Notes under the pieces: generated by a model
Databases searched by the model: none
Told to the model about the DNA's origin: nothing
The model's input: the letters and a program-made list of their open reading frames with translations, nothing else
Position numbers and translations under genes: made by a program
Part shown: positions 2,067-59,420 of the stretch, one piece after another
How the letters are laid out: each line of letters opens with the position of its first letter
Numbering within the stretch: the stretch's first letter is position 1
Origin: Octopus vulgaris
Taxonomy: Eukaryota
Assembly: GCA_951406725.2 (NCBI GenBank)
Contig: OX597819.1
Span: 61,380,001 to 61,444,000, forward strand
Reading direction: 5' to 3'
DNA length: 64,000 bases

Positions 2067-2507
2067 ACTCTTTTACTTGTTTCAGTCATTTGACTGTGGC
2101 CATGCTGGAGCACCACCTTTAGTCGAACAAATCGACCCTAGGACTTATTCTTTGTAAGCCTAGTACTTATTCTATCGGTCTCTTTAGCCGAACCGCAAAG
2201 TTACGGGGACGTAAACACACCAGCATTGGTTGTCAAGCGATGCTGGGAGAACAAACACAGACACACAAACATATACGCGCGCGCGCGCACACACAAACAT
2301 ATACACACATACATACATATATATATATATATATACATGTATAGGACGGGCTTCTTTCAGTTTCCGTCTACTAAATCCACTCACAGAGCTTCGGTCAGGC
2401 CGAGGCTACAGTAGAAGACACTTGTCCAAGGTGCCACGCAGTGGGACTGAACCCGGAACCATGTGGTTCGTGAGCAAGCTACTTACCACACAGCCACTCC
2501 TACGCCT
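2067..2507 (-). mobile_element. SINE family A (tRNA-like head, internal (TA)n(TG)n, LINE-like 3' tail)
   Basis: Reverse complement of the element at 32868-33291. About 15 full or partial copies are visible. Confidence 0.85.
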
Positions 2508-8338: not shown

Positions 8339-9320
<982 letters not shown>

Positions 9321-9774
9321 TGGTTCCGTTTTCAGCAGAGAAAGACGTGATTGCCTTTGCTCTGTGAAAAAGTCTGCATAGAACGGCGAAATAACCCACT
9401 GTAGTTGCAAAACGTAAAACTCTAAGTCATAGAGATCACTACAACACTTTGGTTAAAAATATTTTTAAAAATATATATATAAATATATACATATACACAG
9501 TAATTTTCATTTTCGCCGAAACGCACATGGTGCAAAAATAACTGAATCAAGTTATCTCCTGCAAGAAAGAAAAAAGAAGCATCTCTCCTGAAAAAAATCC
9601 CGTAAACCAAAAAAATAATCCAGACCACATTGTTGGATTAAGTATCAATTTCATCTATTTCATATTTTATTTATTATTCTATTTTATCTTTCACTTTGGC
9701 CCACATCTTAGTTAAAGTTGCGATCGTCATTTGGTTTGTTTACATTTTCAATAACTGTTCTCGATATAATAATA

Positions 9775-11210
9775 TCCCAGATACTCTATCTTCTAATTAG
9801 CCTTAAGATTAAATTAAATAACGTTTAATATTGATACCGTCAAATTAGCCTTAGGATTAAATTAAATAACGTTTAATATAGTTTAATATTGTTAATAATT
9901 ATTCTTAATTAGCCTTAAGATTAAATTAAATAACGTTTAATATTGATACCGTCAAATTAGCCTTAGGATTAAATTAAATAACGTTTAATATAGTTTAATA
10001 TTGTTAATAATTATTGTTAATTAGCCTTAAGATTAAATTAAATAACGTTTAATATTGATACCGTCAAATTAGCCTTAGGATTAAATTAAATAACGTTTAA
10101 TATAGTTTAATATTGTTAATAATTATTATTAATTAGCCTTAAGATTAAATTAAATAACGTTTAATATTGTTTTAATATTGTTAATAATTTTTCAGATACT
10201 CTATCTTCTAATTAGCCTTAAGATTAAATTAAATAACGTTTAATATTAATAACGTCTAATTAGCCTTAGGATTAAATTAAATAACGTTTAATATTGTTAA
10301 TAATTATTGTTAATTAGCCTTAGGATTAAATTAAATAACGTTTAATATTGTTTAATATTGTTAATAATTACTGTTAATTAGCCTTAAGATTAAATTATAT
10401 AACGTTTAATATTGTCTAATATTGTTAATAATTATTGTTAATTAGCCTTGGGATTAAATTAAATAACGTTTAATATTGTTTAATATTGTTAATAATTATT
10501 GTTAATTAGCCTTAAGATTAAATTAAATAACGTTTAATATTGTTTTAATATTGTTAATACTTCTTCAGATACTCTATCTTCTAATTAGCCTTAAGATTAA
10601 ATTAAATAACGTTTAATATTACCCACACTCTAATATAATATTAACATTGCTAATATATTTTCAGATACTCTATCTCCTGATTAGCCTTAAGATTAAATAA
10701 CGTTTTTATCCACACTCTAATATAATATTAATATTGCTAATATATTTTCAGATACTCTATCTTCTAATTAGCCTTAAGATTAAATTAAATAACGTTTAAT
10801 ATTAATAACGTCTAATTAGCCTTAAGATTAAATTAAATAACGGTTAATATTGCTTAATATTGTATATATAATTTTTCAGATACTCTGTCTTCTAATTAGC
10901 CTTAAGATTAAATTAAATAACGTTTAATATTACCCACACTCTAATATAATATTAATATTGCTAATATATTTTCAGATACTCTATCTCCAAATTAGCCTTA
11001 AGATTAAATAACGTTTTTTTTACCCACACTCTAATATAATATTAATATTGCTAATATATTTTCAGATACTCTATCTCCTAATTAGCCTTAAGATTAAATA
11101 ACGTTTTTACCCAAATAACGTTTTTACCCAAATAACGTTTTTACACAAACTTTAATATTGTTAATATTTCTTTTTCAAGTACTCTATCTTCTAATTAGCC
11201 TTAATATCTT
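9775..11210 (+). repeat. AT-rich modular tandem array in the putative 5' UTR of element 1
   Basis: About 20 copies of AATTAGCCTTA(A/G)GATTAAA(TTAAA)TAACGTTT with alternating linker modules. Confidence 0.9.
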
Positions 11211-11265
11211 CCTGTCTTCTCTCGAACATAATTAGATAGATAAACGGATAGACGGATTATCCAGC

Positions 11266-12177
11266 ATGTCCAGAGCATGGAGACGTGACGAGCTGGATTT
11301 ATTCGTACGAGCATGGGAGTGCGCCGGCGGAGATAGCCCTAGCGAGGTGATTGCGGCTGCGCTGAAGAGCAGAGGCTACAAGAGGACAGCGGCTCAGATG
11401 GAGCGAAAGAGACAGGAATTCGTGCGCTCATATGCGCTTGTACGGTCGCACATTGGCGCACTTGATGCCATCTTTGAGAACGAGCGGGGCAAAGATGGCA
11501 AGAATGGAGACGATGAAAGAAGTCACCCCCACCTGGTGGACGCCCAGGAGGAGGTTTTGAATGAGAAACCTGCCCGGGAAGTGAACCCAGGTGCAAGTTC
11601 TCCAACCGGCAGCAAGGGCCATGGAGACGGAGAACCCGGTGAAGAGGTAGAGGGAGGAAGAAGAACTAAAAGAAGGACTGGAAGAGCTAAAGGAAAAGAA
11701 AAAGCTCAAGCAGGACCAAAGAGTGAAACAACCAGGAGTAGAAGTGGAACCGCAAAGGATGGAACCAAACAGCGCACACGGGTGTGTATGTTCTACCTGA
11801 GAGGTTCCTGCTGGCACGGAAAGGAAGGTGCAGGCTGCCGCTTTGCACATCGGGGACCCTGCCACAGAGACACGAGGCAGATGGACAAACCATCAACACA
11901 AAGAAAAGGGATGGACTACGCACCACCTGCCCCAAAGCGGAGGTACGCAGATGTTGTGCGCGCCACAAACAGCCAACATGATGTTGTCGAAAGAGCAGCT
12001 GCTGAGCAACAATCTTTTTTGTGCATGGCACAAAAGATTGTACAGCAGCTGACCTGGCTTCATCAAACCCAAGCCCGCAGGTGGGACTACCCACTATATA
12101 CCAGACCACCACAGCAAACAGACACAGGATGGACACCGCCGGCAACAACGTACACCTCACCTCGATACTCCTACTGA
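11266..12177 (+). CDS. LINE ORF1: Myb/SANT-like N-terminus and CCCH zinc finger
   Basis: 303 aa open. WRRDELDLFVRAW...IAAALKSRGYKRTAAQMERK; CMFYLRGSCWHGKEGAGCRFAH. Homologous to ORF1 of element 2. Confidence 0.8.
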   Translation: MSRAWRRDELDLFVRAWECAGGDSPSEVIAAALKSRGYKRTAAQMERKRQEFVRSYALVRSHIGALDAIFENERGKDGKNGDDERSHPHLVDAQEEVLNEKPAREVNPGASSPTGSKGHGDGEPGEEVEGGRRTKRRTGRAKGKEKAQAGPKSETTRSRSGTAKDGTKQRTRVCMFYLRGSCWHGKEGAGCRFAHRGPCHRDTRQMDKPSTQRKGMDYAPPAPKRRYADVVRATNSQHDVVERAAAEQQSFLCMAQKIVQQLTWLHQTQARRWDYPLYTRPPQQTDTGWTPPATTYTSPRYSY

Positions 12178-15121
12178 ACATCAGAGGACTGCAAACACTC
12201 AGTAACAGGACAAAGATCCCGTTCCTGAGAGACTTTGTTGCATGCAATCAAGCCTTATGCATAGCACTTACAGAAACGCACCTGAAACCGGACATAGCAG
12301 ATGCGGAGTTACACATACCACAGTATGCTGTACTACGGACCGACAGGAAAGAAAGGAGTCATGGAGGTGTTGCTATGTACATCCGTGAGGACCTCACACC
12401 CCAGGTCCTCTTGTCATACTCAAACTCGGTGTGTGACACACTAATTGTACATATTAGGCAACTTGATGTAGTTGTGTGTGCTACATATCGCCCTCCAGAT
12501 GCCCCAAGCCATGTGGGCAAGTTTGAAGACTGCCTTATAAAAATAGAAGAAATTCTAACCACATTAGAACAACACATAGGTGTGCTTCTTATGGGAGACT
12601 TCAATCTGCCCAATGTCAGATGGCCCGAGGGCCTTTCTCTCCCAGGAATGACAAGATGTGAACGAGGACAGGCGAGGTCCCTCCTGAACCTCATCAACAC
12701 CCTGTACATGGAGCAGGTAATACTCCAACCAACCAGGGCAGGTAACACACTGGATCTCTGCTTCACAAATGACATGGATCTCATCCATAATGTGAAAGTG
12801 ACACCGACACTACTCTCGGATCACAACATGATAGAGCTGACCATGTACGGGCCAAAAGAGAGCACGGACATGCAGCCTACAAGAAACCCTCAAAATCTTT
12901 CCAGCTTGAACTACCATAAGGCAAACTGGAAACAAATTGAGAAAGAGATCCTCAAACAAAACTGGCCTGAATGTCTCTCCTCGCCAGACATCGACGTGAA
13001 ACTTCAACAATTCATGTCTGTAATGCAAGCCATATGCTACAAATGTGTCCCAGAGAGAAAGGCCACTGTACACAAGAACAAAATCCCCAGAGAGAGGAAA
13101 ATTTTAATGAGACGGCGTACGAAATTTTCAAATCGCCTAAACAAACAGATTGAAAGCAGTGAAAAGTCCCGCCTAAAAATAAAACTGTTGGAAATCGAAA
13201 AATGTCTGCAACTCTCCCATGAAAAAGAAAGAGCAGACAAAGAAGCCTGGGCTATAGAAAACATAAAATCTAACCCCAGAGCTTTCTACAGGTATGCCAA
13301 AGAAACAGCTACAGTGCACTGTAGAATAGGGCCACTCCTTGAAAAGGATGGCACACTTACAGGAAAACCAATGAGGGTAAGTGAAATACTGAATGAGCAA
13401 TTCAAGAGTGTTTTCACTCCACCCCTTGGGCATCTCCAAATCACCAATCCAACTGACTTTTTTACCACTGCAGATATAAAATCAGAGGCGGCGACGATAG
13501 ATTACATCGATATAAAGGAAGACGATGTAACCAAGGCTATAGATGAAATGAAAACAGACTCAGCTACTGGCCCCGATGGATTCCCGGCAATCCTCCTAAA
13601 AGCATGTAAGAGAGTCCTAGCAAGACCACTGCAGTTCCTCTTTCAGAGCTTCCTTGCAGCTGGCAAACTTCCAGGAAAACTGAAGGAAGGTAAAATATGC
13701 CCCATTCATAAAGGAGGTAGCAGAGCGGAAGCCAAGAACTATAGACCTATCTCTCTGACCTCACACATCAGCAAGGTCATGGAACGAATAGTCAGAAGGA
13801 AGCTGATCACCTTCCTTGAAGAGAATGACTTGCTGCCCGACACCCAACATGGTTTCCGACCAGGGAGAAGCTGTTTAACTCAGCTCCTACAACACTATGG
13901 GTGCTGAAACGGCTGCTCAACCACTCAAATGTGGAAGTGATATATCTCGACTTTGCAAAGGCCTTTGATAAAGTCGATCATGAAATGATATGTCACAAAC
14001 TGCGTGATCTCAACATAGTTGGAAAACTGGGAGAATGGCTTCATGACTTTCTGAAGGATAGAAGTCAGGTGGTAGTAGCCAATGGGGCCACCTCCATTAA
14101 CACACAAATAGTGAGCGGTGTTCCGCAGGGCACTGTTCTGGGACCACTACTGTTCATAATGGCCCTCTCAGACATGCCCTCAGCCACGCAGAGAGCCACG
14201 ATCACAAGTTATGCAGATGATACAAAAGTTTCACAGGCAATACAGAACCCTGAGGACACTAAACACCTGCAATGTGAGCTGGACGAAATATACAAGTGGG
14301 CTGAAAAGAATAGCATGCAGTTCAATGCTGGAAAGTTTCAAGCTTTATACTATCAGCATGCAAAACTGAATGCAATACCCAATGAATACACTGGACCCGG
14401 AGGGATTGCAATCCCAGAGGCACAATCAGTGCGTGACCTGGGTATTCACATGAGTGATGACGCGACCTTTCATGTACATGTTGCTAAACTGACAATGAAA
14501 TGTAGACGGCTGGCTGGCTGGATTCTTAGAACCTTTAGAACAAGAGAACAAGAAACCATGATGGTCCTCTGGAAGACACTTGTCCTAAGCCACTTTGACT
14601 ATTGCTCTCAGCTATGGTCACCATCCAGTGTCAAGTTGATCACAGAACTTGAGGCGATCCAACGAAGCTACACAAAGAAGATAGCCTCTATGCAGAATGT
14701 AAGCTACTGGGAAAGACTCAAGAGATTAAAATTATATTCCCTGGAGCGTAGGCGGGAAAGATATGCCATAATATACATCTGGAAGATCCTGGAGGGAAGT
14801 GTCCTGAACTTTGGCATCGAGAGTTACGCAAATGCCAGAACTGGGCGCCACTGCGTGGTGCCTAGGACTCCAAACCTGCCATCAAGATGTAGGACAAGAT
14901 TCTGTGATAGCCTGGGCTTCCGAGGCCCACAGCTCTTCAATATCCTCCCGAAGAACCTGAGAGACCTGCATGGGGTGGATACAGATGTCTTTAAAATGAA
15001 GCTGGATCTCTTCCTGTCAGGTGTCCCAGATGAACCAACTTCACGGCAGGAGGGGCAGATGAGGGCAGCTGCATCGAACTCTCTCATGCACCAAATAGCA
15101 GTTGCTAGAAAGCCTCTATGA
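12129..15121 (+). pseudogene. LINE ORF2 (APE endonuclease + reverse transcriptase), one frameshift at ~13900
   Basis: APE motifs LNIRGL, LTETHL, YRPP, MGDFN, LDL, SDH. RT motifs [30 protein letters not shown]. Relative to element 2 (QHYDWVLK), 4 nt are missing at CACTATGGGTGCTG. Confidence 0.92.
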
Positions 15122-15208
15122 AGTGAAACCAAGTAGCAACACCAAATGGCGGTGCCCCAGCATGGCCACAGCTCATAAGCTGAAACTAGAATCAATCAAT
15201 CAATCAAT

Positions 15209-18085
<2,877 letters not shown>

Positions 18086-18162
18086 TAAATCCTTAAATCC
18101 TTAAAAATGTTTTAGCCCGAAGGCCGCGGCCATGCTGGGGCACCACCGCTGAATGAGCTACA

Positions 18163-21100
18163 CTAGTTTGTGAATCCACCTCTGATACGTGGCACTTGAT
18201 CAACAAGGGAGTTCGATGCTGCTGCCCGCATCCGTGTCTCCTGTCGTGAGGTAGGTTCATCTGGGACTCCCAACAAGAAGAGATCCAGTTTAGTTTTAAA
18301 GAAACCCACATCCACACCATGTAAGTCTCTCAGGCATTTAGGGAGGATGTTAAAGAGCTGTGGTCCTCTGAAACCCAAGCTGTTGCAGTATCTGGACCTG
18401 TATTTTGATGGTGATGTTGGAATCCTTGGCACCACGCAGCGGCGCCCCGTTCTGCGGTTGGAGTAACTTTGAATGCCAAAGTTTGGGACAAGACCCTCCA
18501 GGATTTTCCAGATGTATATCACTGCATATCTCTCCCGCCTCCGCTCCAGGGAGAAGAGGTTTAATACCTTCAGTCTTTCCCAGTAGCTGACATTTTGCAT
18601 TGAGACGATTTTCTTTGTGTAGCTTCTCTGAGTTGCTTCGAGTTCTGCTGTTTGTTTTATATTGTGTGGTGACCAAAGTTGGGAGCAGTAGTCCAAGCGG
18701 CTGAGGACAAATGTTTTCCATAGGACCATCAGTGTCTCCTTCTCTCTTGTTCTGAAAGTTCGGAGAATCCATCCAGCTAGCCGTCTGCATTTTATCACCA
18801 GATTAGCAATATGCATTTGGAAAGATGCATCATTGCTCATGTCAATGCCCAGGTCACGCACTGATTTTGACTCAGGGATTGCAATTCTTCCTGGGCCAGT
18901 GTATCCAGTCTTCACGTCATTTACCTTTGTGTGCCAGTAGCGCAGGGCCTGGAACTTACCTGCATTAAACTGCATGTTGTTGTCCTCAGCCCACCTGTAT
19001 ATTGTGTCCAGCTCATGTTGCAGATGCGCAATATTTTCAGGGTTTTGTATTGCGTGGGAGACTTTTGTGTCATCTGCATAGCTAGCAAGGGTGGTCATCG
19101 TAGCAACTGAAGGCATGTCTGAAAGGGCCACTATGAACATCAGTGGCCCCAAGACAGTGCCCTGTGGGACACCGCTTGTTATTTGCGTTTCCTTGGAGGT
19201 GGCTCCATTGCTCACAACTGCCTGTTTTCTGTCTTTTAGGAAGTTGTGCAGCCACTCTCCAAGTTTCCCGCCTATGCCGAGACCACGCAGTTTGTGACAG
19301 ATCATACCATGGTCGACTTTATCAAAGGCTTTTGCAAAGTCAAGATATATTACATCCACATTTGAGCCATTTAGTAGCTGTTTCAACACCCAGTCATAGT
19401 GTTGCAGGAGCTGTGTTAGGCAGCCTCTACCTGGTCGAAATCCATGCTGGGTGTCAGACAGTAAGTCATTTTCTTCAAGGAACATGATTAGTTTCTTACG
19501 GACTATTCGTTCCATGACTTTGCTGATGTGTGAGGTCAGAGAGATAGGCCTATAATTTTTAGCATCTGCTCTGCTACCTCCCTTATGGATAGGGCATATT
19601 ACCCCCTCTTTCAGTTTGACTGGGAGCTTACCACTTGCAAGAAAGCTCTGAAAAAGAAGCTGTAGCGGTTTTGCAAGGGCTCGTTTGCACGATTTGAGAA
19701 GGATCGCTGGGAATCCATCAGGTCCAGCAGCTGAGTTTGTGTCAATCTCATCAATGGCTAGTGTGATATCATCTTCTTCGATGTTGATGTACTCAATTTT
19801 TGTCTCTTTGGCCGCTGGTAAAGTGGCAAAGAATTCTTCTGGGTTGTTTACTTGCCTGTGTCCTAGAGGTGTAGTGAACACACTTTGGAACTGTTCGTTC
19901 AGTATTTCACTTATCCTCGTGGGATTTCCTGTGAGAGAGCCATCTTTTTGGAAGAGAGGTCCTATTCTCTGGTGCACTGTGGCTGTCTCTTTGGCAAACT
20001 TAAAGAAAGCTTTAGGGTTTGATTTTATATTTTCTATTACCCAAGCTTCTTTATCTGCTCTCTCCTTTTCATGGGACTGATGTAGACTTTTCTCAGTTTC
20101 CATTAGCATTCTTTCGAGCCGAGACTTCTCACCACTTTTGGTGTGCTTGCTCAGGCGGTTTGCAATCCTTGTCCGTCGTCTCATAAGAATCCTCCTTTCT
20201 CTAGGGATCCTGTTTTTGTTCTTGTGTGTGCTGGCCCTGCACATTGGGACATATTTGTCACATATGGCTTGTATTATGGACATGAAGTGTTTGTGTTTCA
20301 TGTTTATGTCCGGTGTGGAGAGACATTCAGGCCAATCCTGTTTGAGGATCTCTTTCTCAATCGACTTCCAGTTGGCTTTATGAAAGTTTAAGTTGGAGAG
20401 ATGGTGGGTGCTTCGTATAGGCTGTGTGTCTGCGGGGGCTTTTGTTCCATACATAGACAGCTCTATTATGTTGTGATCCGAGATCATTGTCGGCATCACA
20501 TTAACATTATGGATAATATCCATATTGTTTGTGAAGCAGAGATCCAGTATATTATCTGCCCTTGTTGGTTGCAGAACTATTTGCTCCATGAAAGAGGCAT
20601 TTGTGAGATGGAGCAGGGACTCCACCTGTGCCTGCTGATGGTGTGTCATCCCTGGGAGCATCTGCCCCCCAGGCCATTCCACATTGGGGAGGTTAAAGTC
20701 ACCCATGAAGAATACACTGTTGTGCTGTTCAAGGTTGGTGAGGACTTCTCCTATTTTTGTTAGGCAGTCTTCAAACATGCCTGAGTGTTTTGGGGCATCT
20801 GGTGGGCGATATGTAGTGCATATGACGATATTCAGTTGTCTTATGTGTACAATTTGAGTTTCACATACTGAGTTTGAATATGACAGCAGGACCTGGGGCG
20901 TGAGGTCATCTCGGATGTACATTGCAACTCCACCATGGCTCCTCCCTTTTCTATCTGTGCGTATGACTGCATATTGCGGCATGTGTATTTCTGCATCACC
21001 TATATCGGGTTCAAGATGCGTTTCTGTGAGTGCCATGCATATAGCTTGATTGCATGTCACAAGGTCTCTCAGGAATGAAATTTTCTTTTTACAGTTTCCG

Positions 21101-21267
21101 CGCAGCAGCCCTCCTACATTCAGTAGAAATATTTTTGTGGTGTGTGTGTTGGTGTTGGTGTCTGTGGTGGCCATCCTGCATCTGTTGGAGGTGGCCTTAT
21201 GTGGTGGTAGTTCCAGCTTTGTGCTTGTAGCCAGGTCAGCTGCTGAACAATTTTTTGTGCCATGCAC
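18163..21267 (-). CDS. LINE ORF2, uninterrupted (APE + RT), ~1000 aa
   Basis: 1034-aa ORF with [35 protein letters not shown] and YADD. The true start is probably the downstream MATTDT. Confidence 0.93.
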   Translation of the reverse strand: MHGTKNCSAADLATSTKLELPPHKATSNRCRMATTDTNTNTHTTKIFLLNVGGLLRGNCKKKISFLRDLVTCNQAICMALTETHLEPDIGDAEIHMPQYAVIRTDRKGRSHGGVAMYIRDDLTPQVLLSYSNSVCETQIVHIRQLNIVICTTYRPPDAPKHSGMFEDCLTKIGEVLTNLEQHNSVFFMGDFNLPNVEWPGGQMLPGMTHHQQAQVESLLHLTNASFMEQIVLQPTRADNILDLCFTNNMDIIHNVNVMPTMISDHNIIELSMYGTKAPADTQPIRSTHHLSNLNFHKANWKSIEKEILKQDWPECLSTPDINMKHKHFMSIIQAICDKYVPMCRASTHKNKNRIPRERRILMRRRTRIANRLSKHTKSGEKSRLERMLMETEKSLHQSHEKERADKEAWVIENIKSNPKAFFKFAKETATVHQRIGPLFQKDGSLTGNPTRISEILNEQFQSVFTTPLGHRQVNNPEEFFATLPAAKETKIEYINIEEDDITLAIDEIDTNSAAGPDGFPAILLKSCKRALAKPLQLLFQSFLASGKLPVKLKEGVICPIHKGGSRADAKNYRPISLTSHISKVMERIVRKKLIMFLEENDLLSDTQHGFRPGRGCLTQLLQHYDWVLKQLLNGSNVDVIYLDFAKAFDKVDHGMICHKLRGLGIGGKLGEWLHNFLKDRKQAVVSNGATSKETQITSGVPQGTVLGPLMFIVALSDMPSVATMTTLASYADDTKVSHAIQNPENIAHLQHELDTIYRWAEDNNMQFNAGKFQALRYWHTKVNDVKTGYTGPGRIAIPESKSVRDLGIDMSNDASFQMHIANLVIKCRRLAGWILRTFRTREKETLMVLWKTFVLSRLDYCSQLWSPHNIKQTAELEATQRSYTKKIVSMQNVSYWERLKVLNLFSLERRRERYAVIYIWKILEGLVPNFGIQSYSNRRTGRRCVVPRIPTSPSKYRSRYCNSLGFRGPQLFNILPKCLRDLHGVDVGFFKTKLDLFLLGVPDEPTSRQETRMRAAASNSLVDQVPRIRGGFTN

Positions 21268-22019
21268 AAAAAAGACTGCTGTTCAGCTGCCGCCCTTCTC
21301 ACATCTGGGTGAAGCTGGCCACCTGTTGGGTTTCCGCGCACCACATCTGCATACCGTCTTTCAGTAGTGGTCAGTGCGCTTTTTTCCTTCTTTTAACTTT
21401 TTTTTTTGTTTTTGTTCTCCCTGAGGGAGGGACCTCTGTCTCGCGTCCGTGCGGTTTTGGTAGGGCCTCCGATGTGCAAAGCGACAGTTTGCACCTTCAA
21501 CGCCGTACCAGCAGTCCCCCTCAGGTAGAATTTGCAGGTGTTTCTTTCCCTGCCCTTACAGTTTTTGCTGGGGTCCCTCTGCTTTCTCTGGACAGGGCTT
21601 CCTTTAGCCTTGATTCTGTCACCCTTTACCTCCTGCTTCCCATCAATTCCAGGGTGCCTTTCCTTTCTTGCGGCCATCGCACCTCTTTGGTCTTCAGTTG
21701 TGGTGTTGGAAGCTGGACATGTGTCATCGTTTCCCTGTGTTCCAGGCTTCTCCATTTGGCTCTGGATGCTTTCCTCATCCTTTTGGCCCTCCCTGCTGCC
21801 GTCACCTCCCAGGATGATGTCCAGGGTGTCCACATGTTGCCTGATTAGAGCGTACGAACGGATAACTTCTCTCTTCTTTCGCTCTATCTGGGCGGTGGTT
21901 CTCGAAAAATTGTTGCTTTTCAGCGCCGCAGCAATAATGTCGTTCGGCGAGTCGTCCTCAGCGATCCTCCAAGCGCGGACGAACAATTGCACCTCTCTCG
22001 CAGACCAGTTTCTTGCCAT
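21120..22019 (-). pseudogene. LINE ORF1 of element 2 (Myb/SANT-like + CCCH), two frameshifts in homopolymer runs
   Basis: WSAREVQLFVRAW...RTTAQIERK. After CKFYLRG the finger continues in another frame as CWYGVEGANCRFAH. RRYADVVR and AAAEQQSFLCMAQKIVQQLTWL are shared with element 1. Confidence 0.8.
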
Positions 22020-23723
22020 TTTCTTCTAGTGAAATATAGGAACAGAGAGAGAGATAGAGAAGGAGAGATAAGATGGAGAGGGAGAAGAGAAAGGAGAAAA
22101 GCCAGGGGGGGGATAGAGAGAGACGAGGGGATTGTCCTGAGAGAAGAGAGAAAGAGAGAAAATAAGAGGGAAAAAAGATAAAGGTGAAAGAATGGCAGGT
22201 CAGCAGGGGGAGAGTGAGCGGGATAGAGGTGTAGTAGAAAGGGACAGGGTGGAAAAGTGAGACAAGAGGGTGGACCCTAGGGGGAGCAGGGAGAAGAAAG
22301 GCGGAGAGATAAAATGGAGAGGAAGAGAGAGAGAGATGAAATGGAGAGGGAGAGAGAGAGAGGGCAGGATAGAGGTACCAGGGAGTGAAGTAAAGGGACA
22401 GAGAGGGTGGTGTGGAGGAAGGAGACAGAGAGAGGAAAAAAGAGACAGGGGGTGGTGAGCCTTAGAGGGAACAGGGAGAGGAAAGGTAGGAAGAAAAAAG
22501 GGGGAAGAGGGAGAGAGGGGCGCAACAGAGTGTAGTAAAGGGACAGGGAGGGTGGTGTAGAGAAAGAAATAAGGGGACAGAAGGGGAAGAGGAAAAGGGG
22601 TTTGACCTGTGAAGGAGCGGAGAGGAAAGAGGCAGAGAGAGGGAGGGGGAGTAACAGAGAGAGAGAGAAAGAGGGCGGTATATAGATACAAGAGAGAATG
22701 AGTGAAGTTGAGGAACTGAGAGAGGGGGTGAGGTGAGAGAAAGTTGATCTGAGAGAGATGCAGAAAGAGAAACGATGGCAGAGGGAGAGAGAGGGAGGAG
22801 GGGAGAGTGAGAGCGGAAATAGAGGGTCTGGTGGATGGGGAGACAGATAAGGTATAAACTGTATGAGAGAGATAGAAATAGAAATGTAAGAAAGAGAAGG
22901 AGAGATTATAAAGATAGAATAGCGCGTATTTTTATATCTTTTTAATTATTATTTTCTGTTTGAAAGAACACTAATGATAACAAATAATAAAAATGTATGA
23001 GAGAGATAGAAATAGAAATGTAAGAAAGAGAAAGAGAGAGTGCGTGACAGGCACGGAGGGCGAAATTATAAAGATTATAAAGATAGAATAGCGCGTATTT
23101 TTATATTTTTATATCTTTTTTTTTTTTTTTTATTATTATTTTCTGTTTGAAAGAACACTAATGATAACAAAATAAATAATATCTTCCTTACCTTACCGGC
23201 TGAGAGAGTAATTACGTGATTCCTTTTTATAAGAAAGGAAGATAGATAGACAAGACAGACCTTTTATATTCCTTAATCGTATTTTGTAAACAAAAGGGAT
23301 CTGAGTTTCGATTTAGCACATGCAACAGTTTGACGATACTTTCTGTATTTTCCTAAGCGATTTGGTATTAAGCAGCAAATTTTTCAGAGGCTTTTTTCAG
23401 AACACGCAGATATACATCAAAAACGAAAATATCCTTCTCAAAAATACTGTGTCTTGTTGATTCACAGACGAAGAATAAAATTCACTTCGATTTCGGGAAG
23501 TAACACACGTGCGTTTTAACACGTGTATTCGCGAGTATGTTCTAGTTGCAAATACTATATCAAAAGCGAAAATATTCTTCTCAAATACAGTGACTTGTTG
23601 TACTCTCACTTATATTCGCTTTGCAGACAATTTCGCTTCTGATAACATCGATCTCTGGAAGGACTTCTTTAATATTTAGGAGAGACACGTTAACACACTT
23701 GTTGTTAGTTCAGCGCCATCTTG

Positions 23724-24182
<459 letters not shown>

Positions 24183-24194
24183 TCTTCTTTATTC

Positions 24195-24705
<511 letters not shown>

Positions 24706-33021: not shown

Positions 33022-33100
<79 letters not shown>

Positions 33101-33291
33101 TGTGTTTGTCCCCCAACATCGCTTGACAACCGATGCTGGTGTGTTTACGTCCCCGTCACTTAGCGGTTCGGCAAGAGAGACCGATAGAATAAGTACTAGG
33201 CTTACAAAGAATAAGTTCTGTTGTCGATTTGCTCGACTAAAGGCGGTGCTCCAGCATGGCCGCAGTCAAATGACTGAAACAAGTAAAAGAA
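32868..33291 (+). mobile_element. SINE family A, near-complete reference copy
   Basis: Head, internal (TA)n(TG)n, and tail GGCGGTGCTCCAGCATGGCCGCAGTCAAATGACTGAAACAAGTAAAAGA. Confidence 0.88.
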
Positions 33292-41514: not shown

Positions 41515-41602
41515 ACTTTGATACTTTTCGGCCATTATTGGCCCAGGCCATGTCTAACTTAATAGCACCACCTGGTAAAAAACTAAATCGCTGCGGGCAG
41601 GA
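41515..41602 (-). mobile_element. ~90-bp 3' tip of a family-3-related LINE inside a TA-rich array
   Basis: CCAGGTGGTGCTATTAAGTTAGACATGGCCTGGGCCAATAATGGCCGAAA, identical to the 3' end at ~17332-17381 but with different upstream sequence. Confidence 0.85.
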
Positions 41603-44811: not shown

Positions 44812-46035
44812 GTGAGTTCTTTCGACGTCTTGTATTTAATTTAAAATATGTGATGCGCTGGCATGGCAAGCATTTTTGCCGCAGGAAAATTCGCCTCAGG
44901 GTTTTGGGCCATAGGAAAGTTCGCCGCATAGGAAATTGGTATATAATTGTTTCAACCAATAAGAAGGGGTAAAGTAATTTTTTAACTCATTTAAAATTTC
45001 CCCAAACATTTTTACTACAGAAAAATATATTGTCGAATGAATAAAGAAATTTTTTATGAGTTAAGAAATTGCTTCTTATTGGTTGAGACAATTATATACG
45101 AAGGGGAGCAATTCCTCTTTTGTCTCGCAGCTAAGTTTCCGAGAATCGACTGCACGGGCGGAGGTGCATGACTTATGGGTTAGGGTGCTGGACTCATGAT
45201 CATAAAATTGTGGTTTTTTCGTTTCTTGTACCGGACGATGCATTGTGTTCTTGAGTAAGATACTTATTTTCTGCCGCTCCAGTCCACTCAGCTGGTAAAA
45301 ATGAGTAACTCTGCGAGGGACTGGCGCCCCGTCCAGGGAGGAATATATACGTCAGAGAAGCACATTACTCTTTAAGTAGTAATGTATACTAACCAGGCAT
45401 GGCTGTGTAGTTAAGAAGCTCGTTTTGCAACCGCGTGGTTTCAGGTTCAGTTCCACTACGCGGCACCTTGGAATAAGTGCCTACTACTATGAGCTCCGGA
45501 CCGACCAATGCTTTGAGAGTGAATTTGGTAGACGAAGATTGTGTGGAAGCCCATCGTATATATTTATATATGTGCATGTGAGATCTTTACCTTTTGACCT
45601 ACAGATTAAAAAAATATTTTTTGTAACTAAACACTTTCAAACTTCGGACACTGGTAGAATGCGTCATATAAAACATCTTTTACTCTTAGCATTTTTGAGA
45701 ATAACTTATATTTACGAAGTTATTTCACGTAAAATACAAAAGGCGAAAGAAAAGCACAGAGGAAATTACAAATATCACAGACGTTTGGAAAGAGAGTTCC
45801 AATAATATATTCTTCTCTTCGTTCCTTTATTCCCTTTTTGTACGAATTATTTCTAATGGAAACATTTTCCTTTCTATTTGGAATAATAAGCTTTCATGAT
45901 GCAGTGATAAGCTTACACGGAAAAGAATTGTAGCTACTTTGGTCTCTCAATTACAATAGCTTTTTCCGAAGCTTACGACTTCGGAAAAACTCGTAAACGT
46001 TATGACAGCCAATTACTTCCCTTCTATCATTCTAA

Positions 46036-46390
46036 ATCCCATCCATCCATCTTCTCCGCGCACTATTCTTGGGAAGGTTGCGAGGGCGGAGTCCTCAGCA
46101 TCTCTTCCATAGAGTCCGATAAGTAAGCGTCATTACACACTCCGGCAGGACTTCCAAGAAATTGCCAACTTATACTATGGATATTATCCAACCATCTCGT
46201 TCTTGTTCTACCCCTAGACCACCTGTCGGTTGACTCCGTTTGCTGAGTCCACCTTGTGATTCCGGTCAGCGTCATTCTAATCCCATATCCGTAGAATCGG
46301 AGCTGTGACCTCTCAATGCAGAGAAGTAGGGACTCGGCTTGAAGAAGCTCCCTGATCTCCAAGCCACATACCCTCTCGAATAACATTTCT
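46036..46390 (-). mobile_element. RTE-clade (Expander/Rex3-like) LINE 3' fragment
   Basis: LLLCIERSQLRFYG...RGRTRTRWLDNI, followed by a (GATG)n tail. Confidence 0.75.
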
Positions 46391-47546
46391 CCATTAATCC
46401 CACTAAAGGAAAAAATGTTCCTTCTTGAGCCATGCCAGGCTCATAAGGGCCGGTTTCCCGGTTTCAGTGGCGTAGAAATTCCCCACCTGGACGGGATGCC
46501 AGTCCGTCGCAGGATTACTCATTTTTGCCAGCTGAGTGGACTGGAGCAAGGTGAAATGAAATGTTTTGCTCAAGAACACAATGCATCGCCCGGTCCAGGA
46601 ATCGAAACCACAACCTTACGATCATGAGTTCAACACCTTAACCACTAAGCCACGCGCCTCCATCCACTAAATTAAGAAGTCACTTTATTTCTAGATCTGG
46701 GGACAAATTTCGTAGCTAAGTTCACGGTAAACCTATTCCCCGTCCATTCCTGCTTGAATCTGTTTCGATTCACTTACAGCGATTAATTCTATAGAAATAG
46801 CACACACGACACATACATGACACGTTTTTTTTCTTTTTCTCTTTTTTTTTTTTTTTGGTGACCAATATATGCTTCAGATCAACGTTGCTTTTCTTGAGTT
46901 TCGAACCTGAATGTCCAAGTTGTAAAACTAAAATAGTTAACGAATAACGAATATTTGACTGTTTATACCAAAAATGGTTGACGTTGGTAAACAACTATAC
47001 TACAAGTGGATATATTGAGGCAAGCATCTCGGACGTTAGCTTGTGGAAGACATATACTAATTTGAAATGAAAGGTTAATTTTTGTGCCTAAAATTGCCGC
47101 CAGAAAAGTTGAGAGTTTATTGAGGAAATCATATAAAAAGGTGAAATCTCAACTCATTATGGAGATATATGGCTTAATGTAGCTGGAAGTTATGAGTGCT
47201 TTTAGCTTCCTGTTTGACAGGGCAGTTTTCATCCCATTGGCTTAGCTTGTGCGTGTATACTGCTGGGACAGCCCTTGAATTTATCGTTCCCACTCCTAGA
47301 TCTAATACATCCGGTACAGGCTTATACAGCATAAAAGCACCATCCAGGGCGGTCCACCCCATCAACAGCTGTGCTACTGTTTTATCTCTCAATTTCTTCA
47401 CCCAAATATTATTCCTGTCACCTCTCTTTCTCTTTCTCTTTCTCTCTTTGACAAATACCTTCTTAATTCATACAAATTCATGTATTTATAAATCGTAAAT
47501 GCTGTTAAGTGAAATAAAACGTGGTCAAAGATAAATTTTCTTTTGC

Positions 47547-47760
47547 TCTGGTAGAATCATTAGCACGACGAGCAAAATACTAAGCGGCATTTCGTCCATC
47601 TTCACGTTCTGGGTTCAAATTCCGTCGAGGTCGACTTTGCCTTTCATCCTTTTGGTATCGATAAAATAAGCACCAGTGGAGCGCTGGAGTCGATGTAATC
47701 GACTAGCCCCTCTCCCCACACCAAATGTCAGGCCTTGTATCTATAGTAGAAAGTAGAAAG
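47547..47760 (+). mobile_element. SINE family B
   Basis: Family core present. Confidence 0.75.
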
Positions 47761-48113
47761 AATATTTATTCTCCTGCAACAATCTTTCATCTAATAGCAA
47801 ATATTTTGGGAGGAAATTTTCGTCACAGTGGATAACTTATTTGATTTGATTTTCTACTTGGAACTGTTTCATTTTAATTTTACCTAACGTCGCTAATACA
47901 TTTGAAAAAGTTATGACAATCACACTTCAAATTTTCTGTAGCTCCTAAATGTATATCGTGTATTATGTCACTATAAAGATATTTGTGAATGGGGCCGTGC
48001 TGGTGTAACCGGTCAAACGGAGGAAAAGGAGGAGGAAAAAAGGGTCTAAATAGGAGGGTTGAAAATAAACCCGGAAAAATATATTTCAGTATTTTTTATT
48101 CATATATATATTC

Positions 48114-48255
48114 AGGCGCAGGAGTGACTGTGTTGTAAGTAGCTTGATTACCAACAACATGCGTGGCACCTTCGGCGAGTGTTTTCTACTATAGCCTCGG
48201 GCCGACTAAAGCCTTGTGAGTGGATTTGGTAGACGGAAACTGAAAGAAGCCCGTC

Positions 48256-48298
<43 letters not shown>

Positions 48299-48490
48299 TG
48301 TGCGTCTGTGTCTGTCTCCCCAACATCGCTTGACAACCGATGCTGGTGTGTTTACGTCACTTAGCAGTTCGGCAAGAGAGACGGATAGAATAAGTACTAT
48401 TGCAAACAATAAGTCCTGGGATCGATTTGCTCGACTAACGGCGGTGCTCCAGCATGGCTGCAGTCAAATGACTGAAACAAATAAAAGAAT
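48114..48490 (+). mobile_element. SINE family A
   Basis: Family head, internal (TA)n and tail. Confidence 0.85.
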
Positions 48491-48700
48491 ATTTTAACTT
48501 CATTAAAATTTTAAAACTCATACTGTTTTTCATCACAGTTTTCATGTTTGTAACCCCAACACCACTACCCCTTCCTCTGTAAGACAGTCCGTTGTTTGTC
48601 CCCGGGCCCTCCATTTGTATCTTCTATGTATGCCTTTTAAAGGCAATAAAGAAATTCACTATAACGATATTTGATATGACTTTTTATTTCTATTTGTCAG

Positions 48701-48773
48701 CAAACGTCCGCGATCGCAGTCAGTTGCCATAATGCCATCACGTTATCAGTCAGGAATATACATTGAACTGTGA
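48701..48773 (+). CDS. Gene 1, terminal coding exon
   Basis: Acceptor TTTTTATTTCTATTTGTCAG|. A phase-2 join gives GKRPRSQSVAIMPSRYQSGIYIEL*. Confidence 0.6.
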
Positions 48774-49089
48774 ACTATAGAAACAAACGACCAATCAAAC
48801 GAGTTTCTTGATGAAACCTTCTCTCGTTAAAACAATATCATCGTTTATCACAATGAGGCGAAGATGTGTACCCTACATTCAAAGCTTGTAATTACCAGTG
48901 AACTGCACACACACATGCACACACACACACAAAGAAGTTTGGTAATATAACCAGGAAAATAGAGCTCAAAACATGAGTTAATACTTTCAATTAATCGACA
49001 GAAGTCACGAAGTGACTCAAAATCCGAGAGTTTCGTCCATTGATACTTACGAAATTCCGATAATATATATGTGTGTGTGTGTGTGTGCG

Positions 49090-49130
<41 letters not shown>

Positions 49131-50016
49131 GCGTGTGTGTGTATGTGTACAGAGAAAGATATGCATATAGGTATGAGTGTACATATGTATATGTGTGAGC
49201 ACGCGCGCGTGTGTGTGTAGATAAATCCAGAATCTTGGATGTTTCGTTAATAAAATTTTCAAACAGTTTCCACTGGTGATTTGCTTCTTCCTTCTCCCAT
49301 CGTTTCAGATCTCATCGGTCACAGTACAAATACAAATTTTTCTGAGTTTTTTTTCTTCTTTTATTTGCAGATATTAGCTCTGATGAGCACACAGTTTTGC
49401 TCGCTAAAATTATAAACAAACCCAGCGACTTGCTCAGACTCAAAGCTTCGCGATGACACCTCGAAACACTCGTGTCCTGGAATCCCTTGCACCAATAAGC
49501 CGCGAGTGTTATACAAACGTTGTCATCATACAAAGGAGAAGTTGTTTCCCTCTGACATACACAACAGCGATTAGCATATTAGCGTTCGAATCTGCCGAAG
49601 GTATTATGATATACAAATGGCGCGCGCGCGCGAACACACACATACACACACATATAAGTGGCTTAGGGTATTCGGGTCACGATCGTTAAGTCGTAAATTT
49701 GATTCTTGGCGAAGTGCTGAGTCCTTGAGCAAGACACTTTATTTCACGTTGCTTCCGTGCACTCAGCTGGCAAAAATTAACTGTACCTGTACAGGTTTTC
49801 AGGTTTTCACATTTACAAGTACACGGGGTAAGTGGATCTGTAAAAATATGCAAGAATTTTCTAAGGTTTAATATATGAAACATTTTGCATTTATTAAAAT
49901 TTCAGTGACGAAGTTTTGTTTCTTTCTAAGAAACCAGCTTCTTCCTTCTACGAAGAATTTTAATCCACACCCAAAGAAAAGGACATTTAAACAAATGATA
50001 AAACCATTTAATGAAT

Positions 50017-50055
<39 letters not shown>

Positions 50056-50896
50056 TAGATAGATAGATAGATAGATAATATAGCAGCAGTATAAAGTAGG
50101 GTACTTTACACTGTTGTGATTGATTCCATATGAGGTTTAATACATTTCATATGTCGAAAAAATTACAGAACATTAATCTACCGTGATAATGGAGCAAAGC
50201 TGAATACAGATTAATAATAGGCCACTAGAATATCTTCTTGTTTATTTCCGTATTTATGTTCCCCACATTACTGAAATTGCGCATTACACGTCTCCCGTCA
50301 TTTTCATGATTTTCTTTCCTCCTCCTTCTCTTTTCTTTCCTCTTTTTCTCCCTCTTCCTTTCTTCCGACCAATTGTTTTCTCGTCCTTGAATCTAAACCA
50401 AACAAAATCTGTAATGCGCCATAGGAAATAAATAATAATTTTGCAAGAAAATATTCTAAAATTTGTTCCAAAACAGACAATAGTAGAGTCTTTCTTTCAA
50501 TATGTCGGCCAACTTACATTATTTTTCTCCACTATCGACCAAAAATATTTGTGACTCTTTTTCCTACTTGTAAAAGTTTAAAATGTCCAGTGGTCAGGCA
50601 GGTTTGAGATAATTATGCTTTGTTGGTGAGGACTTATGAGGTCGAAGCATCTTAGATGCCACAGTTTCTGCCAACAATGACCAGAGGGTTTCCCAAAGCA
50701 TGCGCATGATTTATGTTGAAATTGGCTCCTAATTTATTGAAATTATCCATAGGCTCGGGAACAGGGGTTGCAGGGGTTGGAAGTGCACCCCTAAAGTTTT
50801 TTGGTGGGGGCAATGGAAACGCTTTGATCGTCCTCCTGAATAAACTTCATCCCCAAAGCGAATGCATCGTTCCTGAGCCTCTCGGAAACCCCGTAC

Positions 50897-51492
50897 AAGT
50901 CATGTAACATATTGGGTTGTTCCTGCCTCTCTTGTGAAACACCGGACATGTCATGTAACATCATGGGTCGTTCCTGCCCTTTGGCGAATCCCCAGATATG
51001 TCATGTAAAGTTATGGATTGGCCCTGCCCCTCGGGTGAATCCCCCAATATGTCATGAAATGTTATGATTTCGGGCCTGCCCTTCTGACAAATCCCCAACA
51101 TGTCATCTAAAGTTAGGAATTGGTCCTGTTCCTCTAGCGAATCCCCCATGTCATGTAACATTATGGGCCCTGCCCCTTTGGCGAAATAAGCAAAATGTCA
51201 TGTAAAGTTATGAGTTGGTCCTGCCACTCTGGCGAATCCCCCGACATGTCATGTAACGTTATGGGTTGCGCATGCCCCTCTGGCGAATCCCCTGATATGT
51301 CATGTAATGTTATAGGATGCACCTGCTCCCTTGGCGAAATCTCTGACATGTCATGTAACGTTGGCATGTTATGTAACATTACGGATTGGCCCTGCCCCTG
51401 TGGCGAATCGCCCGACATGTCCTGTAACGTTATAGATAGGGTCTGCCCCTCTGGCGAATCCCCAACATGTCATGTAACGTGATTGTTTGGCC
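50897..51492. repeat. 51-bp minisatellite, about 11 diverged units
   Basis: Unit ~TGTCATGTAACGTTATGGATTGGCCCTGCCCCTCTGGCGAATCCCCCGACA. Confidence 0.9.
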
Positions 51493-51493
51493 C

Positions 51494-51910
51494 AGGAGTG
51501 GCTGTGTGGTAAGTAGCTTGCTAACCAGCCACATGGTTCCGGGTTCAGTCCCACTGCGCGGCATCTTGGGCAAGTGTCTTCTGCTATAGCCCCGGGCCAA
51601 CCAATGCCTTGTGAGTGGATTTGGTAGACGGAAACTGAAAGAAGCACGTCGTATATATGTATATATATGTATGTATGTGTGTGTATATGTTTGTGTGTCT
51701 GTGTTTGTCCCTCTAGCATTGCTTGACAACCGATGCTGGTGTGTTTACCTCCCCCGTCACTTAGCGGTTCGGCAAAAGAGACCGAAAGAATAAGTACTGG
51801 GCTTACAAAAGAATAAGTCCCGGGGTCAAGTTGCTCGATTAAAAGGCGGTGCTCCAGCATGGCCGCAGTCAAATGACTGAAATAAGTAAAAGAGTAAAAG
51901 AGTAAAAGAG
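51494..51910 (+). mobile_element. SINE family A with (GTAAAAGA)n tail
   Basis: Complete copy. Confidence 0.88.
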
Positions 51911-55467: not shown

Positions 55468-56231
55468 ACTTTGATACTTTGATAGGTTTCGGCCATTATT
55501 GGCCCAGGCCATGTCTAACTTAATAGCACCACCTGGTGAAGTCTTTCAAGTCAGAATTTGGGCACTATGGCCCACTCAAGTAGAGAGTTATTGTTTACAG
55601 AGACATATCCGGGTGTAGGGGGTTTATCCGGGATTTCTTGAAGGAATCTGTCCAAAGACTTCTTGAACCCTATAGGGTCAGTTTCTGTTTTAATGTGTTT
55701 TGGTGTAATGTTAAAGAGAGCGGGGCCAATTGAGGTGAAATAATTGTGCCGTATTGTTGTTATGAGATGAGAGTGCGATTTTTGTTTTGGGCGGATGGCA
55801 CGGGGCCCAAGCCTTGGATGTACCTTAAAGGTGATGCCAACATCATTTGGGCAATGCTGATGGAATATTTTCCACATCATGCAGATGATGTAGCGCTCAC
55901 GACGACGTTGGAGAGAATAGAGTTTTAGCTTTTCTAGCCGACCCCAATAGTCGAGGCCTGTCATGCCATCTATCTTTTTTGTGATTGCCCTTTGAGGTGC
56001 TTCAACTTTTATGATACCTTGTATTGTGTGGGGAGACCACAGTGGACAACAGTATTCAAGGTGGGGTCGGGCAAAAGTGGAGAAGAGAAGGATAATGGTG
56101 TGGATATCTCTCGACTGGAAAGTTCTGAGAATCCAGGAACACATTCTGCGGGCCATGTCAACTTTGGTGTTTATATGAGTGGCCCAGCTTACGTTGTTGT
56201 CCACAATTACTCCCAAGTCTCTGATGTTGTT
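55468..56231 (-). mobile_element. 5'-truncated LINE family 3 copy inside (TA)n
   Basis: Almost identical to 16638-17401. I noticed only two synonymous differences. Confidence 0.93.
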
Positions 56232-59027: not shown

Positions 59028-59420
59028 TCTTTTACTCTTTTACTTGTTGTTTCAGTCATTTGACTGCGGCCATGCTGGAGCACCGCCTTTAGTCGAGCAA
59101 ATCGATCCCGGGGCTTATTCTTTGTAAACCCAGTACTTATTCTATCGGACTCTCTTGCCGAACCGCTAAGTGACGGGGACGTAAACACACCAGCATCGGT
59201 TGTCAAGCAATGCTAGGGGGACAAACACAGACACATAAACACACACACATACATATACATATACATATATACGGCAGGCTTCTTTCAGTTTCCGTCAACC
59301 AAATCCACTCACAAGGCATTGGTCGGGCCGGGGCTATAGCAGAAGACACTTGCCCAAGTTGCCACGCAGTGGAACTGAACCCGGAACCATGTGGTTGGTT
59401 AGCAAGCTACTTACCACACA
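59028..59420 (-). mobile_element. SINE family A
   Basis: Matches the family consensus. Confidence 0.85.

What the first reader, a model, noticed from the sequence alone, without database searches (positions are those of the whole stretch)
11266..12177. Unusual LINE ORF1: Myb/SANT-like domain plus CCCH zinc finger
Seen in both full-length elements: an N-terminal W..xE..LF..AW...IAAAL.....RT.AQ.ERK block, a variable charged linker, a C-x7-C-x8-C-x3-H finger, and a conserved RRYADVVR / AAAEQQSFLCMAQKIVQQLTWL block. Established: common LINE ORF1 types use RRM, CCHC knuckle, PHD, esterase or L1-type domains. Inference: the N-terminus resembles trihelix/Myb-SANT DNA-binding domains and could tether the RNP to TA repeats, while the CCCH finger binds RNA. 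Domain identity is by eye only.
Basis: partly seen in the sequence, partly recalled or inferred. Interest (0 to 1): 0.8.

Follow-up and report, generated by a model that had tools for sequence, protein, structure and literature searches.

The report
Octopus CR1 ORF1 with Myb-like domain
A family of octopus jumping genes (CR1 LINEs) has a first protein that joins a predicted Myb/SANT-type DNA-binding fold to a single CCCH zinc finger, a combination not found among the described types of this protein, though what the Myb-like part binds is untested.

Summary
ORF1 (11266-12177, 303 aa) of a CR1-clade LINE has an N-terminal helical domain, a charged linker, a C-x7-C-x8-C-x3-H finger and a conserved C-terminal helix. 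The second copy has the same blocks only across two frameshifts.

The N-terminal domain is very likely Myb/SANT/trihelix-like. Pfam Myb_DNA-bind_4 hits are weak, but one relative passes the cut-off. The model has pLDDT 89, and the best fold matches are SANT, MYB, TEA and GT-1 domains (Z 7.2 at most). Helix 3 keeps a conserved basic face.

The layout recurs in subfamilies 22-57% identical in that domain; all named members are Octopus vulgaris. The finger is closest to the first finger of triple-CCCH proteins, some with a PHD-like N-terminus, which suggests a PHD-to-SANT swap. I could not show that those proteins are LINE ORF1s.

All nine CR1 ends examined abut TA microsatellite, but nothing ties this to ORF1. 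Ten paper searches found no such ORF1 type; Repbase and Dfam could not be searched. Verdict: a probably undescribed ORF1 type in a known clade. DNA binding is likely; TA specificity is unproven.

The parts
11266..12177 (+). ORF1 of element 1, intact, 303 aa (P0001); overlaps the ORF2 start by 49 nt
11272..11490 (+). Predicted Myb/SANT/trihelix-like domain (aa 3-75): helices 7-20, 25-35, 42-60, plus an extra helix 63-74; basic face on helix 3
11491..11778 (+). Variable linker, predicted disordered: acidic half aa 76-130 (6 basic, 14 acidic), basic half aa 131-171 (15 basic, 3 acidic)
11785..11850 (+). Single CCCH finger, C-x7-C-x8-C-x3-H
11938..12084 (+). Conserved C-terminal helical block (aa 225-273), amphipathic with a heptad-like pattern; candidate self-association helix
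12129..15121 (+). ORF2 of element 1 (APE endonuclease + RT), broken near 13897
9322..11265 (+). 5' UTR of element 1, 23% GC, with 20 copies of a palindrome-rich unit (9796 to about 11140)
15122..15210 (+). 3' UTR and (AATC)n tail of element 1
21120..22019 (-). ORF1 of element 2: same blocks, two frame breaks (near 21516, inside the finger; about 21397-21362)
18163..21174 (-). ORF2 of element 2, intact, 1003 aa, 72-76% identical to element 1's
22020..23721 (-). 5' UTR of element 2, CT-rich, no clear homology to element 1's 5' UTR
8353..9321 (.). (TA)n tract at the 5' end of element 1
15211..15923 (.). (TA)n tract at the 3' end of element 1
17401..18087 (.). (TA)n tract at the 3' end of element 2, shared with a truncated third-family copy
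23724..24183 (.). (TA)n tract at the 5' end of element 2

Best explanation
This is the ORF1 protein of an octopus CR1 LINE lineage, which likely packages the element's RNA through its single CCCH finger and basic linker, likely self-associates through its C-terminal helix, and carries a predicted Myb/SANT-like domain that likely docks the particle on DNA or chromatin without being the sole reader of TA repeats. Shown: the ORF, its four-part layout, selection on the blocks, recurrence in diverged subfamilies, CR1 placement of the RT, and the TA flanks. Predicted: the fold (about 0.9). Inferred: nucleic-acid binding by the basic helix 3 (about 0.65), RNA binding by finger and basic patch (about 0.75), oligomerisation (about 0.6). 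Also inferred (about 0.5): it arose from a PHD plus three-CCCH protein by replacing one chromatin-directed module (PHD) with another (SANT) and losing fingers 2 and 3. TA choice is assigned mainly to the ORF2 endonuclease and priming, with ORF1 at most assisting.
For: Fold: Pfam Myb_DNA-bind_4 E 0.011 and 0.027 for the two copies. It also hits 5 of 11 relatives that have the domain among 16 scanned, one above the curated cut-off (P0043, 29.3 vs 27 bits). Model pLDDT 89, pTM 0.73. Foldseek probabilities: TEAD4 0.94-0.96, RAD MYB 0.95, GT-1 0.89, DNAJC2 SANT 0.84. The top 7 of 48,161 chains in the wide search are SANT, MYB, TEA, trihelix or GARP-type domains. Helix 3 and its flanks: position 40 basic in 26/26 rows, R47 22/26, K48 25/26, position 49 basic in 24/26, position 60 basic in 23/26; the domain is net positive in 19 of 20 rows. 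Finger: Pfam zf-CCCH E 0.0067; nearest solved sequences are MBNL fingers (E 0.00095 with the family profile). C-terminal helix: pLDDT 88-93, 22/22 identical with 8 silent changes, hydrophobicity concentrated in three of seven heptad positions. ORF1p coiled coils and arginine-rich motifs are described for ZfL2-1 (PMC3905857, passages). Origin: a profile from the first finger of 9 triple-CCCH proteins scores 8 octopus-type proteins 29-46 bits and 11 generic CCCH proteins 17-27. The 7,8 spacing occurs in 8/8 octopus-type fingers, 9/9 first fingers and 1 of 63 generic fingers; hhalign probability 98.5.
Against: Every fold signal is individually weak. No Foldseek match reached E 0.001. The best Z is 7.2, under the level of 8 that the tool trusts. 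Atlas scores were all under 0.9. Only 2 of 11 rows of alignment A5 hit the Pfam family at E 1 or better. Family profiles found no Myb entry in the PDB by sequence. Helix 3 lacks the tryptophan of the usual C..KW motif (motif recalled; columns). The top structural matches include SANT domains, so the fold does not tell DNA from protein binding. The C-terminal helix is not significantly shared with the triple-CCCH proteins (best 9 of 300 shuffles for 1 of 8). Those proteins were not shown to lie upstream of an ORF2. No binding data exist.
Confidence: 0.5

Rival explanations
1. The Myb-like domain reads (TA)n specifically and is the main targeting device, as the Myb domain of R2 reads its rDNA site.
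For: All 9 CR1 ends examined abut TA-rich microsatellite; 7 of 9 lie within 25 nt of a perfect (TA)5, against 11.7% of random positions. Helix 3 has a conserved basic face. [quoted passage not shown]
Against: Three of the 5 insertions belong to a distant, 5'-truncated CR1 family (39-59% identity over ORF2 pieces) whose ORF1 is unknown. The 9 ends are not independent, since two tracts are shared. An APE endonuclease alone cuts a simple repeat in TRAS1 (PMC2868851, passages). Unchecked AI notes report unrelated Penelope elements in (TA)n in this genome, so TA landing need not involve a Myb domain.
Confidence: 0.2
2. The domain is a protein- or RNA-binding module: it carries ORF2p or the RNP into the nucleus, touches histones or remodellers as SANT domains do, or adds an RNA-binding surface.
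For: The best structural rows include the DNAJC2 SANT domain, RSC chains and Cdc5. Harbinger Myb-like proteins bind their transposase and import it (PMC9392472, passages). The helix-3 tryptophan is missing.
Against: Near-invariant Arg/Lys along helix 3 and a net positive charge fit a nucleic-acid surface better than a histone-tail surface (the contrast is recalled knowledge). The two roles are not exclusive.
Confidence: 0.18
3. The domain binds the element's own 5' UTR repeats and regulates its promoter, as Harbinger Myb-like proteins bind their own ends.
For: Element 1's 5' UTR has 20 copies of a palindrome-rich unit found nowhere else in the window. Harbinger precedent.
Against: Element 2 keeps the same helix-3 residues but has none of these units and an unrelated 5' UTR. 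Shared 10- to 12-mers do not clearly exceed shuffles (19, 42 and 73 of 200); shared 9-mers do (0 of 200), probably from AT-rich composition.
Confidence: 0.06
4. The N-terminus is a small helical bundle that only resembles Myb/SANT.
For: Sub-threshold Pfam scores for the window proteins, Z under 8, no sequence hit to Myb entries in the PDB.
Against: One relative passes the curated Pfam cut-off. Four methods name the same fold group.
Confidence: 0.06

Closest known systems
CR1-clade LINEs of Octopus (O.sinensis_104, _135 and _14 LINE clusters in Martelossi et al. 2023, PMC10294476; passages, supplementary alignment and Table S7 rows read)
   Same: Their RT stretches match elements 1 and 2 nearly letter for letter (by eye) and are classed Jockey/CR1/CR1, with 21, 14 and 183 RT members.
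   Different: That work classified these by RT; 'Myb' and 'zinc finger' do not occur in its main text.
ORF1 types I-V of the Jockey superfamily (Metcalfe and Casane 2014, PMC4120745; parts 1-3 of 6 and supplement 1 part 1 read, term searches)
   Same: Modular ORF1 with a proposed chromatin-directed module (PHD in types IC, IIB/C, III) beside nucleic-acid-binding modules; frequent domain swaps.
   Different: No Myb, SANT or CCCH in its text or Table 1, and no Octopus element in its list. This ORF1 has no RRM, CCHC, esterase, transposase-22 or PHD hit, so it would fall in type V (unclassified).
Triple-CCCH proteins, some with a PHD-like N-terminus (P0053 cluster in Petrolisthes cinctipes; P0057, P0060, P0064, P0075 unnamed)
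   Same: Same first finger, C-x7-C-x8-C-x3-H with a His-Gly after the second Cys in most; similar length. The crab cluster has 14 near-identical sequences, as a transposon protein would.
   Different: Three fingers, not one; a Cys-rich PHD-like or other N-terminus instead of the Myb-like domain; C-terminal helix not significantly alike. That they are CR1 ORF1s is recalled and inferred, not shown.
R2 retrotransposon N-terminal zinc finger plus Myb module (PMC11204384, abstract and section 9)
   Same: A non-LTR retrotransposon carrying a Myb-type domain; there it recognises the target site.
   Different: In R2 it is part of the single RT/RLE protein, with DNA-binding fingers. Here it is in a separate ORF1 of an APE-type element, beside a CCCH finger.
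Harbinger/PIF SANT-Myb-trihelix protein and MSANTD genes (PMC9392472, passages)
   Same: Same broad fold; binds DNA and its transposase. The Pfam family hit here is PF13837 (its link to these proteins is recalled).
   Different: A DNA transposon protein with no CCCH finger. A possible donor of the domain, not tested.

Membership tests
CR1 clade LINE | ORF2 with APE endonuclease and RT | tested here: met
   Exo_endo_phos and RVT_1 hits
CR1 clade LINE | RT groups with CR1 references | tested here: met
   Near-identical RT rows are classed CR1 in a published tree; match by eye, no reference tree of my own
CR1 clade LINE | Short tandem-repeat 3' tail, not poly(A) (recalled) | tested here: met
   (AATC)n in element 1, an 8-mer repeat in element 2
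Proto2 clade | Proto2-type RT | tested here: not met
   Proto2 reference rows differ throughout from this RT (by eye)
Myb_DNA-bind_4 / trihelix (PF13837) | Curated score of 27 bits | tested here: not met
   16.5 and 15.3 bits for the window copies; met only by relative P0043, 29.3 bits
Myb_DNA-bind_4 / trihelix (PF13837) | Three-helix homeodomain-like fold | tested here: met
   Predicted model and fold searches; best Z 7.2, so moderate
Myb_DNA-bind_4 / trihelix (PF13837) | Conserved aromatic core with a Trp in helix 3 (recalled) | tested here: inconclusive
   W5 18/20, W17 20/23, F/Y38 24/26 and Y56 25/26 kept; no Trp column in helix 3
Myb_DNA-bind_4 / trihelix (PF13837) | Sequence-specific DNA binding | not testable with these tools
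   Needs EMSA or SELEX
CCCH (C3H1) zinc finger | C-xn-C-xn-C-x3-H ligand set | tested here: met
   8 of 8 octopus-type proteins counted, spacing 7,8
CCCH (C3H1) zinc finger | PF00642 cut-off of 20.5 bits | tested here: not met
   16.8 bits; some triple-finger relatives pass
CCCH (C3H1) zinc finger | Zinc and RNA binding | not testable with these tools
   Inferred from likeness to MBNL fingers
ORF1 types I-IV | RRM+CCHC, CC-RRM-CTD, PHD or esterase domain | tested here: not met
   No such Pfam hit at E 10; the model has no room for such a domain
Repbase/Dfam-catalogued ORF1 architecture | An entry describing Myb plus CCCH in a LINE ORF1 | not testable with these tools
   Neither database is available here

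The most novel reading that the evidence does not exclude
A CR1 lineage captured a Harbinger-type trihelix domain into ORF1, in place of a PHD finger, and uses it to recognise (TA)n. That would be target-site choice made by ORF1p through direct DNA reading in an APE-type LINE, and would help explain how these families reached high copy number while landing in microsatellites.
Probability: 0.15. Interest if true: 0.8.

Novelty: new variant of a known kind. Interest (0 to 1): 0.55.

Why it matters
LINE ORF1 proteins are seen as RNA-packaging factors, and the role of their extra modules (PHD, esterase) is largely untested. A compact Myb-like domain in ORF1, in a lineage that lands in one simple repeat, gives a clean test of whether ORF1p takes part in choosing the insertion site. 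It also adds two domain types (Myb/SANT-like, CCCH) to the ORF1 lists I could read, and points to a wider, poorly annotated group of triple-CCCH proteins that may be invertebrate CR1 ORF1s.

Tried and rejected
Proto2 membership (recalled idea): rejected, the RT is CR1. Homology of the C-terminal helix to the triple-CCCH proteins: not significant. P0022's and P0043's C-terminal scores come from being in the alignment and were not counted. Linking triple-CCCH proteins to an ORF2: the metagenome scan with an ORF2 alignment gave 9 loci, none with a profile hit for the finger or a convincing one for the N-terminus; the viral scan found nothing. Longer fused forms (651-2000 aa): none among 7992 candidates, weak evidence. 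Whole-protein Atlas search: no usable hit. PDB sequence search with family profiles: no Myb entry. Rfam over 9300-24400: no match. A genome-wide count of 3' flanks could not be obtained, so TA association rests on this window alone. The dimer prediction for the C-terminal helix was never run, so self-association is untested. No whole genome is held. No RNA holder is on record as RNA; two runs guessed to be RNA cover ORF1 with contigs, which shows no expression. Ten paper searches: none listed a paper that, by title or abstract start, describes a LINE ORF1 with Myb/SANT or CCCH domains; one search was noisy (20 of 121 listed). Term searches for Myb and CCCH were blank in PMC4120745, PMC5203782, PMC13343379 and PMC9115989. 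Supplement 2 of PMC4120745 was unreadable, supplement 3 was not opened, and the curated libraries of PMC10294476 were not examined; they may bear on novelty.

Full report
Observation. The ORF at 11266-12177 (+) encodes 303 aa directly upstream of an APE-RT ORF2, which it overlaps by 49 nt. A loose CCCH pattern appears in 86 of 100,000 shuffles. The second long element (- strand, 18092-23721) carries the same blocks, but its ORF1 has two frame breaks, one inside the finger. Element 1's ORF2 has a 4-base deletion near 13897 relative to other copies. So neither copy is whole. The conserved blocks are under selection: 23 silent changes among 39 identical codons in the N-terminus, and 8 silent and no other changes in the 22-codon C-terminal block. 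Laid on four public runs, the family gives 45,000-50,000 contigs in two of them, with depth rising toward the 3' end, as expected of an abundant LINE.

Which element. All named homologues with the N-terminal domain are Octopus vulgaris proteins. In the supplement of Martelossi et al. 2023 (PMC10294476), RT rows from O. sinensis match elements 1 and 2 nearly letter for letter by eye, and Table S7 classes them as CR1. My recalled idea that these might be Proto2 was rejected on the same alignment.

The family. A profile search of 1.84 billion representatives returned 70 proteins. The whole layout (N-terminal domain, finger, C-terminal helix) is in P0004 (O. vulgaris, from the cluster look-up), P0012, P0014 and P0015 (unnamed). 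It is partial or degenerate in P0016, P0022, P0024, P0043 and many fragments. N-terminal domains of nine rows are 22-57% identical, so this is an old, diversified ORF1 type. Its range outside Octopus is unknown, because the most diverged members carry no taxon.

N-terminal domain. Pfam Myb_DNA-bind_4 scores the two window proteins at E 0.011 and 0.027, below the cut-off. Among 16 relatives scanned, 11 have the domain; 5 hit the family and one passes the cut-off. In alignment A5 only 2 of 11 rows hit it. AlphaFold2 with 26 rows gives pLDDT 89 and helices 7-20, 25-35, 42-60 and 63-74. Foldseek has no match at E 0.001, but its highest probabilities are TEAD4, RAD MYB, GT-1 and the DNAJC2 SANT domain. 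The wide search ranks DNAJC2 SANT, RAD, TEAD4, GT-1, ARR1, LUX and PHR2 first, with best Z 7.2, a level that can reflect a common arrangement. The Atlas gave Myb-family clusters at 0.78-0.83, leads only. Sequence profiles found no Myb entry in the PDB. I put the fold at about 0.9. It is a divergent member: helix 3 has no Trp column but a near-invariant basic face, which favours nucleic-acid binding over a pure protein-contact role (inference).

Finger and origin. The finger is a CCCH type with an unusual 7,8 spacing; MBNL fingers are the nearest solved sequences. The search also returned proteins with three CCCH fingers. Two show a complete C4HC3, PHD-like N-terminus by eye, which Pfam did not call PHD. 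One forms a cluster of 14 near-identical porcelain-crab proteins. A profile built only from nine of their first fingers scores eight octopus-type proteins 29-46 bits and eleven generic CCCH proteins 17-27 bits; the 7,8 spacing is in 8/8, 9/9 and 1/63 fingers. The profile comparison gives probability 98.5, driven by the finger. The C-terminal helices are not significantly alike. I recall such PHD plus CCCH proteins as invertebrate CR1 ORF1s, but could not link them to an ORF2. The PHD-to-SANT swap is therefore an inference (about 0.5).

Linker and C-terminus. The linker is predicted disordered and ends in a basic patch (15 basic, 3 acidic residues) just before the finger. Residues 237-273 form a confident helix with a heptad-like pattern. 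Coiled coils and arginine-rich motifs serve multimerisation and proposed RNA binding in ZfL2-1 ORF1p (PMC3905857, passages). Self-association was not tested here.

TA repeats. All nine CR1 ends examined, from five insertions, abut TA-rich microsatellite. Seven lie within 25 nt of a perfect (TA)5, against 11.7% of random positions; two tracts are shared between neighbours. Three of the five insertions are truncated copies of a distant CR1 family with unknown ORF1. The TRAS1 endonuclease alone cuts its repeat (PMC2868851, passages), and unchecked notes report Penelope elements in (TA)n in this genome. The preference looks real in this window, but it cannot be assigned to ORF1. The R2 Myb domain shows that such a role is possible (PMC11204384). 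Harbinger Myb-like proteins show the alternatives: binding the element's own ends and importing the partner enzyme (PMC9392472, passages). Binding to the element's own 5' UTR is disfavoured, because the two UTRs are unrelated while helix 3 is kept.

Novelty. The survey of 448 Jockey-superfamily ORF1s lists no Myb, SANT or CCCH domain and no octopus element. Ten paper searches found no description (listed under Tried and rejected). Repbase, Dfam and most subscription papers were out of reach, so the claim is 'not found', not 'absent'. Verdict: a real and probably undescribed ORF1 architecture within the known CR1 clade. Interest 0.55; 0.8 if ORF1p proves to read (TA)n (probability about 0.15).

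Noticed in passing
window 9322-11265 and 22020-23721: The two elements are 72-76% identical in ORF2 but have unrelated 5' UTRs: an AT-rich array of 20 palindrome-rich units in one, a CT-rich tract in the other. This suggests promoter replacement.
   Followed up: partly
window about 2076-2250 (-), 33100-33290 (+), 51700-51900 (+), 59040-59200 (-), 24190-24300 (-): A SINE-like repeat shares a roughly 24-nt motif with the 3' UTR of elements 1 and 2, a candidate SINE-LINE partnership.
   Followed up: partly
window 15933-17400 (+), 55469-56228 (-), about 41517-41579 (-), 62243-62483 (-): Truncated copies of more distant CR1-like ORF2s. The first three share one 3' end and sit in TA tracts; the first two are identical over the last 304 nt. 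The fourth is a decayed fragment, family not determined.
   Followed up: partly
window 8353-24183: Three CR1 insertions are packed into one TA-rich region, two of them tail to tail, separated by TA tracts of 460-970 nt.
   Followed up: no
window 56741-57721 (-): An open 326-aa frame that looks by eye like a Tc1/mariner transposase, flanked by TA-rich tracts.
   Followed up: no
P0070, P0073 (unnamed proteins): Triple-CCCH proteins with a third kind of N-terminus (helical, neither PHD-like nor Myb-like), which hints at repeated swaps of the N-terminal module.
   Followed up: no
P0053 cluster (Petrolisthes cinctipes): 14 near-identical 'C3H1-type domain' proteins annotated as host genes may be transposon ORF1s.
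   Followed up: partly
window 50867-51480: A 51-nt tandem repeat array of about ten copies.
   Followed up: no
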